Origin: Octopus vulgaris
Lineage: Eukaryota
DNA length: 64,000 nt
Direction of reading: 5' to 3'
Assembly (NCBI GenBank): GCA_951406725.2
Contig: OX597840.1
Coordinates: 12,834,001-12,898,000, forward strand
The notes below the pieces were generated by a model. The model had not been told where the DNA came from. It did no database searches and saw only the letters and a program-made list of their open reading frames with translations. Of the stretch, positions 11,008 to 31,328 are shown one piece after another; the stretch's first letter is position 1; every line of letters begins with the position of its first letter. The position numbers and the translations under genes were made by a program.

Positions 11008-11121
11008 ATGGTTGCTTCCATTGTTATTGATCATGGATCATATATGTGTAAAGCTGGTTTTGGAGGTGATTATGAAGAAAGAAAACTGATTCCTCCAGTT
11101 GTTGGTTATCCTAAACAAAAG
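11008..11121 (+). CDS. Divergent actin-like protein, coding exon 1
   Basis: Exactly 38 codons, MVASIVIDHGSYMCKAGFGGDYEERKLIPPVVGYPKQK (cf. actin [34 protein letters not shown]). It is followed by the donor AAG|GTATGT at the conserved phase-0 actin intron site near codon 41/42. Missing from the ORF track. Confidence 0.88.
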
Positions 11122-11151
11122 GTATGTTGACTATATATACATATACATAGA

Positions 11152-11369
11152 TAAAGGACTGACCACTCAAAAAGTAGACGGTCAACATGCTAGATATAGA
11201 CGTCAAATCGCTATTTTCCACAAAAAATATGTTTTCAAATAAATAAAATATTTTTAATGCTTTGGTTTTGTGCTGAGTTTTTATTTGAGAACATATTCTT
11301 TGTGGAAAATAGCGACTTGACGTCTATATCTAGCATCTTGACCGTCCACTTTTAGTGTTCAGTCCTTTA
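11152..11369. mobile_element. Hairpin MITE-like element with ~90-bp inverted arms (copy at ~19084-19301)
   Basis: TAAAGGACTGACCACT..GACGGTCAACATGCTAGATATAGACGTCAAATCGCTATTTTCCACAAA is mirrored at the other end. Confidence 0.75.
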
Positions 11370-11663
11370 AATTTTGTATGCAAAAATATTTTAATCTCTG
11401 GATTTTTTAATATGCTGGGCCACTGGTTTTAATTGATTAATATCAATTTCTACCCTTATTAAATTTTAAATTAAATATACATATACATATAAATTTATTG
11501 GAAGCTAATTATATGGCTGGTCACTCTATATATGGAATGGTTCTGCATGCTTACAGCACTTAGCTTTATAGTTCTTTATGAATGCAAGCCATTGGTCAAT
11601 TCTGTAAGCACGTTATGTGTCTTACATTTAGAGTGTCTTCTTTTTCGGATATATAATCCGCTG

Positions 11664-26142: not shown

Positions 26143-29100
26143 TTTTATAGGATTAATTATAGGATTTTATAAGATAAATTATAGGATGTCATAGGATTAA
26201 TTATAGGATATTATAGGATTAATTATAGGATATTATAGGATTGATAACAAGGTATTATAGGATTGATTATAGGATATTATAGGATTAATTATAGGATATT
26301 ATAGGATTAATTATAGGATATTATAAGATTAATTATAGGATATTATAGGATTAATTATAGGATATTATATGTTTAATTATAGGATATTATAGGATTAATA
26401 ATGGGATATTATATGATTAATTATAGGACATTATAGGATAAATTATAGGATTAATTATAGGATATTATAAGATTAATTATAGGATATTATAGGATTAATT
26501 ATAGGATATTATAATATTAATTATAGGATTAATTATAGGATATTATAAGATTAATTATAGGATATTATAGGAGTAATTATAGGATATTATAAGATTAATT
26601 ATAGGATATCATAGGATTAATTATAGGATATTATATGTTTAATTATAGGATATTATAGGATTAATAATAGGATATTATATGATTAATTATAGGACATTAT
26701 AGAATAAATTATAGGATTAATTATAGGATATTATAAGATTAATTATAGGATATTATAGTATTAATTATAGGTTATTATAGGATTAATTAGAGGATATTAT
26801 AGGATTTATTATTGGATATGATGCGATTAATTATAGGATTTTATCGGATTAATTATAGGATGTTATAGGATTAATTATAGGATATTATAAGATTAATTAT
26901 AGGATATTATAGGATTTATTATAGGATATTATAATATTAATTATAGGATTAATTATAGGATATTATAAGATTAATTATAGGATATTATAGGAGTAATTAT
27001 AGGATATTATAAGATTAATTATAGGATATCATAGGATTAATTATAGGATATTATATGTTTAATTATAGGATATTATAGGATTAATAATAGGATATTATAT
27101 GATTAATTATAGGACATTATAGAATAAATTATAGGATTAATTATAGGATATTATAAGATTAATTATAGGATATTATAGTATTAATTATAGGTTATTATAG
27201 GATTAATTAGAGGATATTATAGGATTTATTATTGGATATGATGCAATTAATTATAGGATTTTATCGGATTAATTATAGGATGTTATAGGATTAATTATAG
27301 GATATTATAAGATTAATTATAGGATATTATAGGATTTATTATAGGATATTATAAACTTAATTATAGGATATTTTAAGATTATTTATTGGATATTATAGGT
27401 ATAATTATAGGATTTTATAGGATTCATTATAGGATATTATAAGATTAATAATAGAATATTATAGGATTAATTATAGGATATTATAGGAATGATTATAGGA
27501 AATTATAGGATTGATAACAGGGTCTTTTATGATTATTTAATAATGGGATATTATAGATCAATTTTAGGATATCATAGGATTAATTATAGGATGTTGTGGT
27601 ATTGATTATAGGTTATTATAAGATTAATTATAGTATATTATTGGATTAATTATAGAATTAACTATAGGATATTATAAGATTAATTGTAGGATATTATTGG
27701 ATTAATTATAGAATATTATGAGATTAATTATAGGATTAATTATAGGAATAACTATAGGATATTATAGGATTAATTATAGGATATTATAGAATTAATCATA
27801 GGATATTATAAGATTAATTATAGGATATTATAAGAATAATTATAGGATATTATAGGATTAATTATAGGATATTATAAGATTAATTATAGGATATTTTAGG
27901 ATTAATTATAGGATATTATAGGAATAATTATAGGATATTATAGGATTAATTATAGAGTATTATAGGATTAATTATAGGATATTATAAGATTAATTATAGG
28001 ATATCATAGGAATAATTATAGCATATTATAAGATTAATTATAGGAGATTATATGTTTAATTATAGGATATTATAGGATTAATTATAGGATATTATATGAT
28101 TAATTATAGGATATTACAGGATTAATTAGAGGATATTATAGGATTAATTATTGGATATTGAAGGGATAATTATAGGATATTATAAGATTAATTGTAGGAT
28201 ACTATTGGATTAATTATAGGATAATACATGATTAATTATAGGATATTATAGGATTAATTATAGAATATTATAAGATTAATTATAGGATATGATGCGATGA
28301 ATTAAAGGATTTTATAGGATTAATTATAGGATTAATTATAGGGTATTATAGGATTAATTATAGGATATTATAAGATCAATTATACGATATTAGAGGATTT
28401 ATTATAGGATATTATAAACTTAATTATAGGATATTTTAAGATTATTTATTGGATATTATAGGAATAATTATAGGATTTTATAGGATTAATTATAGGATAT
28501 TATAAGATTAATTATAGGATATTATAGGATTAATTATAGGATATTATAGGATTGATTACAGGGTCTTTTAGGATTAGTTAATAATGGGATAGTATAGATT
28601 AATTTTAGGATATCATAGGATTCATTATAGGATATTATAGGATTGATTACACGGTATTATAGGATTAATTATAGGATATTGTGGTATTGATTATAGGTTA
28701 TTATAAGATTAATTATAGGATTAATTATAGGATTTGTAGGATTGATTACAGGGTATTATAAGATTAATTATAGGTTATTATAGGATTAATTATAGGATAT
28801 TATAGGATTAATTAAAGGATATTATAGGAATAATCATAGGATATTATAGGATTAATTATAGGGTATTATAGGATTAATCATAGGATGTTATAAGATTAAT
28901 TATATGATATTACAAGATTAATTACAGGTTATTATAGGATTAATTATAGGATATTATTAGAATAATTATAGGATATTATAGGATTAATTATAGGATGTTA
29001 TAAGATTAATTATAAGATATCATAGGATTAATTATAGGATATTATAAGATTAATTATAGGATATTAAAGTATTAATTATAGGATATTATAAGATTAATTA

Positions 29101-30215
29101 TAGGATATTATAGGATTAATTACAGGGTATTATAGGATTAATTATAGGATATTATAATAATATTTATAGGATATTAGAGGATTTAATATAAATATATTGT
29201 AATTGTTGTGTGAGAAAGTATATATACTATGATTATAAAATATAGTGTGCATTTCAAAAACAAAAAACAAAACATTTTACATTCCATTTTTTATGAATGT
29301 GGTCACTTACTCTCTCTCTCCCTCTCTCGCCTTGTCTTTCCCATGAAACTCTCTGCCTCCTTCTTCCACTTTTCTTCTTATTTTTTTGTTAGACACTGGC
29401 AAAAAAGCTAAGTTCGATATTTTTTGTTGCTTAAAGCTATGTCTGAAATTAGATATTTACGCTACCCACGGATCCCTCGGAGAAAAAAATAAGTTGACAA
29501 AACCCAGATAGGGTGTTGACAAATGTCCTAAAATTTGAGCTACATGCATGCTAATTTGTGGATGTGCATAAATTACTATCCCGTACACACACACACGCAC
29601 ACAGATCCACCCTTTTATAGATATGATTATAGGATATTAAAGGATTAATTACAGGATATTAAAGGATTAATTATAGGATATTATAAGATTAATTATAGGA
29701 TATTATAGGATTGATTATAGAATATTATTGGATTGATTATAAGATATTATAGGATCAATTATAGGATATTATAGGATTAATTATAGGATATTATAGGATT
29801 ATAGGATTATAGGATACTAGCATTATGACCCGGCGTTGCTGGGTCATAGTTCTAGTGTATGTATATATGTCTATATATATTGTACATATTACATGTACTT
29901 CTATATATATACATCTACACATAAAATGCAAAGTTATATCTTGATATCACTAGTGATAACAATACTCAAAATATATAACAGACTGGAATTGTAGGCCCGT
30001 CTCTTGCAATGACACTCCCCGGACCGTAAGTAAGGCATGAGCAAAATTTGAATGAAATTGGTTGTGTAGTTCTCAAGTTTTAGGGAAACACACAGAGAGA
30101 CAGACGGACAGACAGACAGACACACACACATTCTCAGTTTTATATATATAGAGCTTATAGGATTAATTATAGGATATTATAGGATTGATTATAGGATATT
30201 ATAGGATTGATTATG
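26143..30215. repeat. ~22-bp AT-rich minisatellite/satellite (TTATAGGATTAATTATAGGATA)n with two insertions
   Basis: Directly visible alternating 12+10-nt subunits. Interrupted at ~29190-29625 and 29817-30152. Confidence 0.97.
29817..30152 (-). mobile_element. Non-autonomous Helitron-like element inserted in the satellite
   Basis: Minus strand begins TCTATATATATAAAACTGAGAATGTGTG..(TCTG)n and ends with the hairpin ACCCAGCAACGCCGGGT followed by ..CTAG|T. No TSD. Confidence 0.7.
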
Positions 30216-30317
30216 AAAATTTCATTGTTTGTGTAATTCTTTCTATTATTTCTATCTTGTAAAAAATTTTATTGACTTAAGTTTCTAGAATTCTTATTGT
30301 CATTTATTATATTGCAG

Positions 30318-31328
30318 AATTATTTTAGACCAAACCCCAAAATCCTTGTTGGAGAGGAAGCTGAAAAGAATAAAACTGTTCTTAATTTGCAGAATCCCAT
30401 TAAACATGGTCTTATTACTCACTGGGAGAATATGGAGAAAATCTGGCAACATGCATTCGAAGAGTTGAAAGTTGCAGCCGAAGACTATGCTGTCTTGTTG
30501 ACTGAGCCTGTCAGTAACTCTGAAACAAACAGAGCGAATATGGTTGAAATTATGTTTGAAAAGTTTCAAGTTCGTGCAGTAATGGTGGCTAATCAAGCTG
30601 CTTTGTCCCTCTTTGATTCTGGCCGTGTCACAGGTATTTCTGTGAATGTAGGCCATGGTATCACCCAAGTTGTCCCTATTTATGGAGCTTCAACTATAAA
30701 AGGAGCTACTTTCTGTCAGCATCAGAATATTACTGGTCTTGCCTTGAGAGATAACCTTAGAAGTATCTTGACTGAACGTGGCTACAGGTATGGTGACTCA
30801 ATGTCAGAAAACAGAACGTTAAATGACATCAAAGAGAAGCTCTGCTATGTTGCTCTAGACTTTGAACAAGAAATGCAGGCAGCAAAGTCTTCTAAAGCTT
30901 TGGAAAAGAGTCATGAACAATCTGATGGACAAATCATTACCATTGGCAATGAACGATTTCGAGTCCCAGAAGCTATTTTCAGCCCTTCTGATGGTGTTCA
31001 TGAGATGACTTATAACTCAATCATGAAATGTGATGAGGAAATTAGGAGAGATCTGTTTGCCAACATTGTGTTGTCTGGTGGTTCAACAATGTTTCCAGGT
31101 TTTGTTGAGCGTATGAAAAAGGAAATCAGTGCCTTGGCACCACCTAACACTGAAGTTAATATCATTGCTCTACCAGAACGTGAATACTCTCCATGGATTG
31201 GGGGTTCTAGATTGGCTAGTAGACCTCCCACTGATGATCTGTGGATTACAAAAGAAGAATATAAAGAATCTGACGCATCTCATGTCTGTAGGAAACATAT
31301 ACATAAAATGGAAAATTTGAGTCCTTAG
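30318..31328 (+). CDS. Divergent actin-like protein, coding exon 2 (336 codons + stop)
   Basis: Uninterrupted ORF with [85 protein letters not shown] and WIGGS. The acceptor TTATTATATTGCAG|AAT at 30317/30318 is phase 0. The ORF-track start at 30297 is a TTG lying in the intron. Confidence 0.93.

What the first reader, a model, noticed from the sequence alone, without database searches (positions are those of the whole stretch)
11008..31328. Cryptic, highly divergent ~374-aa actin-like gene split by a 19.2-kb intron
Seen: a 114-nt exon ending AAG|GTATGT and a 1011-nt exon beginning TTGCAG|AAT join in phase 0 to give 38+336 = 374 codons with no stop. Known: conventional actins are ~375 aa, extremely conserved, and often have an intron at codon 41/42. 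Seen versus conventional actin: P1 loop DNGSG>DHGSY, P2 loop DSGDGVTH>NVGHGITQ, K336>E, D-loop replaced by [11 protein letters not shown], and the C-terminal HRKCF replaced. H73, Q137 and the SGGxTMxPG motif are kept. Inference: a lineage-specific actin-related protein with altered nucleotide chemistry. The open frame, while neighbouring relatives decayed, suggests selection.
Basis: partly seen in the sequence, partly recalled or inferred. Interest (0 to 1): 0.82.

Follow-up and report, generated by a model that had tools for sequence, protein, structure and literature searches.

The report
Octopus array of fast-evolving actins
This is a real, already annotated octopus gene, the last of about twelve neighbouring actin copies that have lost most of actin's filament contacts, so its protein likely acts as a non-filament actin look-alike that binds actin or its partners, as young actin-related proteins do in flies and mammals.

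Summary
The two-exon, 374-codon frame is real but not cryptic: it equals O. vulgaris CAI9741794.1, with O. sinensis and O. bimaculoides relatives. It ends a ~290-kb tandem array of 12 two-exon actin-derived genes (10 open) in four subfamilies, plus four broken fragments. The array keeps the codon-41/42 intron and arose from the chromosome-7-type conventional actin (dS ~0.53), not from Arp1 or Arp2. RNA-like contigs splice at the predicted acceptor and mostly match paralogue D1; the exact 11121-30318 join is not shown. Only 9 of 31 filament-contact residues and 15 of 23 nucleotide-site residues survive; H161Q and G15Y/H are array-wide, N12H is specific to this copy. dN/dS climbs from 0.02 to about 1. 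Purifying selection on the family holds; site-model positive selection failed a simulation control. Best reading: a young non-canonical actin-related protein, likely poor at polymerising and hydrolysing ATP. Testis expression is untested. My searches found no paper and no earlier scan note on the array.

The parts
10838..10844 (+). TATA-like element 170 nt upstream of the ATG (also present before exon 1B); promoter role inferred
   Evidence: sequence
11008..11121 (+). coding exon 1 (38 codons; P1 loop DHGSY), GT donor at 11122
   Evidence: equals residues 1-38 of CAI9741794.1
11122..30317 (+). phase-0 intron, 19,196 nt, at the same position as the single coding intron of the four conventional octopus actins
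10326..16556 (+). first unit of a local tandem duplication (upstream region, exon 1, intron start)
18253..24572 (+). second unit of the duplication, inside the intron
18945..19053 (+). exon 1B: duplicate exon 1 with a 5-nt deletion and intact donor; spliced to exon 2 it would stop after 39 codons
26145..29190 (.). 22-bp minisatellite, about 138 copies; a related array lies in the introns of D1-D3
30318..31328 (+). coding exon 2 (336 codons plus TAG)
30645..30668 (+). P2 loop NVGHGITQ (D154N, D157H, H161Q in actin numbering)
30978..30995 (+). site of the 18-nt (6-codon) deletion within the hydrophobic plug, shared by all O. vulgaris and O. sinensis D proteins aligned, absent from the two O. bimaculoides D proteins
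31329..31794 (+). 3' UTR ending at an AATAAA (31789-31794); a D1-type RNA-like contig ends at 31789
360..1231 (+). broken A-type actin fragment (frameshift, stops)
39609..40461 (+). broken A-type actin fragment
47785..48786 (-). broken A-type actin fragment

Best explanation
The gene is one of four recent copies of an Octopus actin-derived subfamily inside a 12-gene tandem array, and its protein is predicted to keep the actin fold and nucleotide binding but likely neither hydrolyses ATP well nor builds normal filaments, so it likely works as a monomeric or end-binding actin look-alike that occupies actin partners or filament ends in particular cells. History: a chromosome-7-type conventional actin gene was copied at the DNA level with its intron (shown). 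The copy changed its phosphate loops (G15Y/H, D157H/L, H161Q; shown array-wide) and expanded in tandem into subfamilies A-D before O. bimaculoides split off about 34 Mya (B, C and D types are found there). The vulgaris/sinensis D lineage then lost six plug codons (shown) and is still duplicating and losing copies (shown). The subfamily is spliced at the predicted acceptor in RNA-like contigs (shown mainly for D1). The biochemical behaviour and the cell type are inferred.
For: Identity to annotated proteins in two species plus D-type proteins in a third. Array map and gene models. Same intron as conventional actins. dS 0.53-0.55 to the C7 actins versus 2.1-2.6 to C2/C11 actins, and 1.6 between C7 and C2. 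Array monophyletic with 99 (all positions) and 90 (third positions) bootstrap support, nested beside C7. Arp2 and Arp1 lie on other contigs. AlphaFold model pTM 0.67, TM 0.75 to actin; a conventional actin with the same alignment got pTM 0.78 and was weak in the same regions. 9 of 31 filament-contact residues named in 10.1101/309534 kept, against 54% identity overall; 15 of 23 nucleotide-site residues kept. Purifying selection: M0 omega 0.61 on 292 well-aligned codons, below all 43 neutral simulations (minimum 0.74); M1a+gamma beats neutral+gamma by LRT 23.8. A neutral frame would survive the D-stem distance (0.2) in 0.07% of 3000 simulations. RNA-like contigs in 3 of 3 RNA-type runs have no depth in the intron bin where the DNA run reads through; the X12 loose end is the D1 exon-1 end.
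Against: omega on the D stem (0.87) and recent D branches (1.22) is not different from 1 (p=0.57, 0.48). D3 has a stop, B2 a frameshift, exon 1B a frameshift. The main RNA contigs match D1 (34 of 35, 28 of 29 sites; X14 ties D1 and D3 at 20 of 23), and this copy appears only as one short X12 contig whose upstream exon was not shown. Surface residues evolve faster in any relaxed protein, so loss of filament contacts need not be targeted. The D-loop alignment is uncertain. No biochemistry, protein detection or tissue data. Divergent actins can still polymerise (Leishmania, PMC9200798 abstract).
Confidence: 0.55

Rival explanations
1. The D subfamily, and this copy above all, is now a set of redundant duplicates under little constraint, transcribed at low level and drifting towards loss; only older branches were functional.
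For: D-stem and recent omega indistinguishable from 1. 1 of 4 D genes has a stop, and a frameshifted exon 1B with an identical upstream region sits inside this gene. Neutral survival of this copy's frame is 54%. RNA contigs are mostly D1.
Against: The D stem kept an open frame over a distance where about 6 stops are expected, and its net indels are in frame. Codons 126-175 and 276-325 (phosphate-loop and adenine regions) have only 1 and 2 nonsynonymous changes among four copies, against 28 in codons 27-75. N12H copies are open in O. sinensis.
Confidence: 0.25
2. The proteins are specialised polymerising or co-polymerising actins, for example in sperm or spermatophore formation, with co-evolved new filament contacts.
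For: Fold kept. Analogy: non-canonical Arps of Drosophila and mammals are mostly testis-expressed and localise to germline actin structures (PMC8291977, PMC7038667). Changes among D copies cluster in the D-loop/subdomain 2: 28 of 113 nonsynonymous sites against 65 of 962 adjacent intron sites (p=3e-8), and against 3 of 34 synonymous sites (p=0.055).
Against: Plug deletion plus M44, Y169, E167, K113 and F375 changes hit both cross-strand and long-pitch contacts; single plug mutations already impair yeast actin (titles and passages in PMC3038201). D transcripts appear in runs of three separate studies, which argues against strict testis restriction, although the tissues are coded.
Confidence: 0.13
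3. The array is a host-defence innovation: actin look-alikes that escape or decoy bacterial actin-modifying toxins.
For: D proteins lack R177, K50 and E270, which PMC4699905 names as toxin target or docking residues. Tandem birth-and-death with omega near 1 resembles immune gene arrays (general knowledge).
Against: Post hoc: 46% of all positions and 71% of filament-contact positions changed, so losing three surface residues is expected. B and C genes keep K50; C2 keeps R177. Site-model positive selection failed its control.
Confidence: 0.05
4. It is the octopus orthologue of an ancient canonical Arp (Arp1-Arp11).
For: About 54% identity to actin is in the range of Arp1 (recalled); ESM Atlas neighbours include ARP-T2, Arp2 and ACTL7A clusters at nearly equal scores.
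Against: Unsaturated dS (0.53) to a conventional actin of the same genome, shared intron, Arp1 and Arp2 found elsewhere in the genome, best PDB hits all actin.
Confidence: 0.01

Closest known systems
Non-canonical Arps of Drosophila (Arp53D; obscura-group D-ActL1-3, Arp2D; PMC8291977, PMC7038667, passages read)
   Same: Young, lineage-restricted, fast-evolving derivatives of actin; some copies lost in some lineages.
   Different: The four obscura paralogues arose by independent duplications ('tandem' occurs 0 times in PMC7038667's main text) and are said to keep the ATP-binding and hydrolysis motif. The octopus genes form a 12-gene tandem array, carry H161Q and changed P-loops, and the D group lacks much of the plug. 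Germline expression is shown in flies and untested here. Independent origin.
Mammalian testis Arps (ACTRT1-3, ACTL7A/B, ACTL9; mentioned in PMC8291977; gene names partly recalled)
   Same: Actin fold with diverged surfaces; appear among language-model neighbours.
   Different: Not orthologous: the octopus array derives from an octopus actin at dS ~0.5 and keeps its intron.
Conventional cephalopod/mollusc actins (C7, C2, C11 genes here; independent actin diversification in molluscs, PMC5440852 passages; Carlini et al. 2000 seen only as a reference)
   Same: Fold, intron at codon 41/42, D11, S14, K18, Q137, K213, E214, G301-G302.
   Different: 54% identity, omega 0.02 versus about 0.5-1.2, altered P-loops, D-loop, W-loop, plug and C-terminus.

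Membership tests
Actin superfamily (PF00022) | profile match and actin fold | tested here: met
   Pfam E=4e-87; model TM 0.75 to actin
Conventional actin | about 90% or more identity to other actins | tested here: not met
   203 of 375 positions (54%) identical to octopus C7 actin
Conventional actin | catalytic Q137 and H161, intact P1/P2 loops | tested here: not met
   Q137 kept; H161Q, G15Y, D154N, D157H; roles from 10.1101/309534 section 10
Conventional actin | filament contacts (D-loop M44, W-loop Y169, plug 262-272, F375) | tested here: not met
   9 of 31 kept; 6-codon plug deletion
Conventional actin | polymerises and hydrolyses ATP | not testable with these tools
   needs purified protein
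Canonical Arp1/Arp2 | orthology to the conserved subfamily | tested here: not met
   Arp2 on C11 and Arp1 on C2 identified separately; dS to C7 actin unsaturated
Canonical Arp3-Arp11 | orthology and subfamily insertions | tested here: inconclusive
   no tree with these subfamilies was built; origin from the C7 actin lineage makes orthology very unlikely
Non-canonical (young) Arps | recent derivation from actin or a canonical Arp, lineage-restricted | tested here: met
   array-type proteins found only in three Octopus species, with limited cephalopod coverage
Non-canonical (young) Arps | rapid evolution | tested here: met
   omega 0.017 to 0.5-1.2
Non-canonical (young) Arps | positive selection | tested here: inconclusive
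   M2a signal vanished with rate variation and is mimicked by 43 of 43 neutral simulations; nonsynonymous excess in codons 27-75 remains
Non-canonical (young) Arps | male-germline-enriched expression | not testable with these tools
   run tissues are coded

The most novel reading that the evidence does not exclude
Octopus has built a diversifying repertoire of actin look-alikes: a tandem array of hydrolysis-poor, non-polymerising actin folds whose D-loop/subdomain-2 face is under positive selection and whose first and second exons are mixed by recombination and possibly by splicing across neighbouring copies, giving a variable set of decoys or regulators. The O. sinensis annotation of two exon-1 by two exon-2 combinations as isoforms, and the mosaic C3/C5 genes, do not exclude this.
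Probability: 0.13. Interest if true: 0.78.

Novelty: new variant of a known kind. Interest (0 to 1): 0.42.

Why it matters
Actin is among the most constrained proteins. Young, fast-evolving actin derivatives have been studied mainly in flies and mammals. A 12-gene array in Octopus that left that constraint within tens of millions of years, with a dated loss of the hydrophobic plug, offers an independent test of why animals keep inventing such proteins, and natural variants for which actin surfaces filament formation needs. In practice, automated labels such as 'actin, cytoplasmic' and 'actin-3' on these genes mislead cephalopod expression studies. The single gene is less surprising than first scored: it is annotated, one of several near-identical copies, and appears not to be the main RNA form.

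Tried and rejected
Positive selection by site models: M2a beat M1a on the array (LRT 25.6; 9.6 on the strict set) and on the four D genes (19.9), but not once gamma rate variation was allowed (p=0.66 and 0.14). Neutral simulations with rate variation reached LRT 9.6 in 43 of 43 and 25.6 in 40 of 43 runs, so these tests and their site lists are discarded. Branch lengths in the site models were M0 values rescaled; B2, D3, C3 and C5 were left out of the array set (broken or mosaic), and the strict set dropped actin positions 39-64 and gap-adjacent columns. No run was on record as RNA ('no RNA holder listed'); contig depths (D-type about 400-500 in X12 versus 5-9 in X14 and X18; 13 versus 496 for the D4-type and D1-type contigs in X12) cannot rank expression and are not used as evidence. 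A codon-model tree in iqtree timed out; nucleotide and protein trees were used. The PDB search with exon 1 gave only actins in the 60 shown, so a recalled likeness of GSY/GH loops to nuclear Arp4 was not tested. The ESM Atlas did not discriminate. Earlier scan notes: none nearby, none by words, 8 unrelated actin notes by sequence. Searches for squid, cuttlefish or nautilus members found none, but these lists are capped and dominated by conventional actins, so absence is not shown. No complex prediction was run. Haplotype artefact was rejected for D1-D4 (42-52 differences in 980 nt, against 1.22% heterozygosity reported in 10.1101/2023.05.16.540928), but not excluded for the exon 1A/1B duplication (2.5% divergence).
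Full report
Observation. The window holds ATG 11008 to a GT donor after 11121 (38 codons) and an AG acceptor before 30318 followed by 336 codons and TAG. Both parts match Pfam Actin, and the best solved relatives are conventional actins. The joined protein is letter for letter P0002, GenBank CAI9741794.1 of Octopus vulgaris; its 90% cluster also holds three O. sinensis RefSeq proteins of 374 aa. 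The gene is therefore real and annotated, not cryptic.

A block of about 6.2 kb containing the upstream region and exon 1 is duplicated inside the intron (10326-16556 and 18253-24572; 97.5% ungapped identity). The second exon 1 (18945-19053) keeps its donor but has a 5-nt deletion and would stop after 39 codons. A 22-bp minisatellite fills 26145-29190. These two features explain much of the intron length; paralogous introns range from 3.5 to 23.6 kb.

The array. The window is G000:C27:12834001-12898000. In 464 kb around it I found 12 two-exon actin-like genes between 12.58 and 12.87 Mb, and four broken fragments. They fall into subfamilies A (1 gene), B (2), C (5) and D (4; the window gene is D4). 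Ten of 12 are open; B2 is frameshifted and D3 has a stop. The three broken fragments in the window are 96-97% alike, share the same breaks and are 87% identical to A, so they record one decay event copied along with the D cassettes. O. sinensis has A, B, C and D types; O. bimaculoides has B, C and D types. The split from O. bimaculoides is given as about 34 Mya and vulgaris/sinensis as 2.5 Mya (10.1101/2023.05.16.540928, passages). No array-type protein outside Octopus turned up: of 160 hits compared by BLAST with the octopus genes, 2 were closer to the array than to conventional actin, and both are Octopus. These searches are capped, so the range is a lower bound.

Origin. All array genes share the phase-0 intron after codon 41/42 with the four conventional actins on C7, C2 and C11. 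D4 is at dS 0.53-0.55 from the two C7 actins but 2.1-2.6 from C2 and C11, while C7 and C2 are 1.6 apart. Nucleotide, third-position and protein trees make the array one clade, sister to a divergent gene on C17, beside the C7 pair in the nucleotide trees. Arp2 and Arp1 are separate multi-exon loci. The array is thus a DNA-level derivative of one conventional actin lineage.

Expression. No run was on record as RNA. I laid three guessed-RNA runs from three studies and one DNA run on 30216-31880 (4 of 24 listed runs). The three RNA-type runs have no depth in the intron bin 30216-30271, where the DNA run reads through. Contigs begin at 30315 in X12 and X18 (30331 in X14). The X12 loose end is the 3' end of D1 exon 1 (compare), and the X12 contig stops at 31789, at an AATAAA. 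The listed differences match D1 at 34 of 35 (X12) and 28 of 29 (X18) sites; X14 ties D1 and D3 at 20 of 23. One 110-nt X12 contig matches D4 with one difference over 30316-30399, where D1-D3 differ by 10-11, and leaves 26 letters unlaid at the acceptor; a 110-nt DNA contig lies fully across it. That fits a spliced D4 RNA, but exon 1A, exon 1B and D2 exon 1 all end in AAG and the letters were not shown, so the join 11121-30318 is inferred. Tissues are unknown.

Protein anatomy. AlphaFold gives an actin fold (pLDDT 68.7, pTM 0.67; TM about 0.75 to actins). A conventional actin folded with the same 41 sequences scored 76.9 and 0.78 and was weak in the same D-loop and subdomain-4 regions. D11, G13, S14, K18, Q137, G156, G158, K213, E214, G301 and G302 are kept: 15 of 23 nucleotide-site positions in my list (list partly recalled). 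G15Y/H, D157H/L and H161Q are shared by all array proteins aligned; K336E is D-wide including O. bimaculoides; N12H is confined to D4 and two O. sinensis proteins. Q137 and H161 drive hydrolysis in filaments, and S14, G15, D157 and G158 contact phosphates through backbone atoms (10.1101/309534, abstract passage and section 10). Binding is therefore likely kept and hydrolysis likely impaired (inference). Of 31 residues that the same preprint names in filament contacts or the F375 pocket, D4 keeps 9. An 18-nt deletion removes six residues of the 262-272 plug in all vulgaris and sinensis D proteins aligned but not in O. bimaculoides, which dates it. The plug supports cross-strand contacts (PMC3038201 passages), and R177H, also present in D by alignment, raises the critical concentration of yeast actin (PMC4699905 passage).

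Selection. Branch omega rises from 0.017 (conventional) to 0.53 (array stem), 0.67 (old array branches), 0.87 (D stem) and 1.22 (recent D). The first two array values are below 1 (p=0.046, 0.001); the D values are not. On 292 well-aligned codons omega is 0.61, below all 43 neutral simulations, and a constrained class improves on neutral-plus-gamma by LRT 23.8. A neutral frame survives the D-stem distance in 0.07% of runs but D4's own branch in 54%. Site-model positive selection failed its control. What remains is a raw excess among the four D genes: 79 of 840 nonsynonymous sites against 13 of 243 synonymous (p=0.05) and 110 of 2266 flank sites, concentrated in codons 27-125 and 326-362, with near-invariance in 126-175 and 276-325. 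Gene conversion could produce part of this pattern.

Mechanism. Most likely (0.55) the D proteins are non-canonical actin-related proteins that fold, bind nucleotide and act as monomers or filament-end binders rather than as filaments. Fold and sequence losses are shown or predicted; activity and cell type are inferred. Rivals are decaying duplicates (0.25), specialised polymerising germline actin (0.13), toxin decoy or escape (0.05) and canonical Arp (0.01).

Known kinds and novelty. Young, fast-evolving, mostly testis-expressed Arps are described in Drosophila and mammals (PMC8291977, PMC7038667, passages), and independent actin diversification in molluscs is noted in PMC5440852 (passages). 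I found no description of this array in searches. 'Actin' occurs 0 times in the main text of the O. vulgaris genome preprint, once and irrelevantly in PMC6341066 and PMC7656900, and not in the passages shown from PMC9699675. Albertin et al. 2015 is not held and Carlini et al. 2000 was seen only as a citation; they, subscription papers and unread supplements of the genome papers may mention these genes. Verdict: a new variant of a known kind (tandem array, plug deletion, altered catalytic histidine), with the individual gene already in databases. Interest 0.42.

Noticed in passing
G000:C27:12585427 and 12589002 (minus strand; loci L055, L056): Gene A also has two copies of exon 1 with identical coding sequence, both in frame, echoing the exon 1A/1B duplication in the window.
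   Followed up: no
G000:C27:12681835-12725259 (L045, L041, L042): C3 and C5 carry a B-type exon 1, and C5 has a B-like stretch in its 3' third: mosaic genes from recombination or conversion within the array.
   Followed up: partly
proteins P0122, P0125, P0126: O. sinensis RefSeq lists three D-type 'isoforms' that combine two exon-1 versions with two exon-2 versions; either merged tandem genes or real cross-copy splicing.
   Followed up: no
L012/L075 (C17:44.43 Mb), L010 (C8:84.62 Mb), L019 (C8:50.26 Mb): Further divergent octopus actins: C17 (67% to actin, D11K, D157H, sister to the array), an intronless C8 gene closest to the C2 actin (likely retrocopy), and a 35%-identical C8 gene.
   Followed up: partly
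window 26145-29190: 22-bp minisatellite with strong GC skew; related arrays of different lengths (about 10 kb in D2) lie in the introns of the other D genes.
   Followed up: partly
window 6525-9330 (-), 25488-25892 (-), 38220-39069, 45509-46069 (+), 49077-49691 (-): Fragments resembling Penelope-type retroelement RT and GIY-YIG domains (family recalled; only a weak GIY-YIG Pfam hit at 45509-46069).
   Followed up: no
window 45078-45502 and 45920-46344: 425-nt inverted repeat at 97% identity flanking the GIY-YIG-like frame.
   Followed up: no
proteins P0006-P0020, P0026, P0047, P0130: A 534-539-aa mollusc-wide actin family (Haliotis, Crassostrea, Mytilus, Aplysia, chiton) that scores as if it had a duplicated actin segment.
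   Followed up: no
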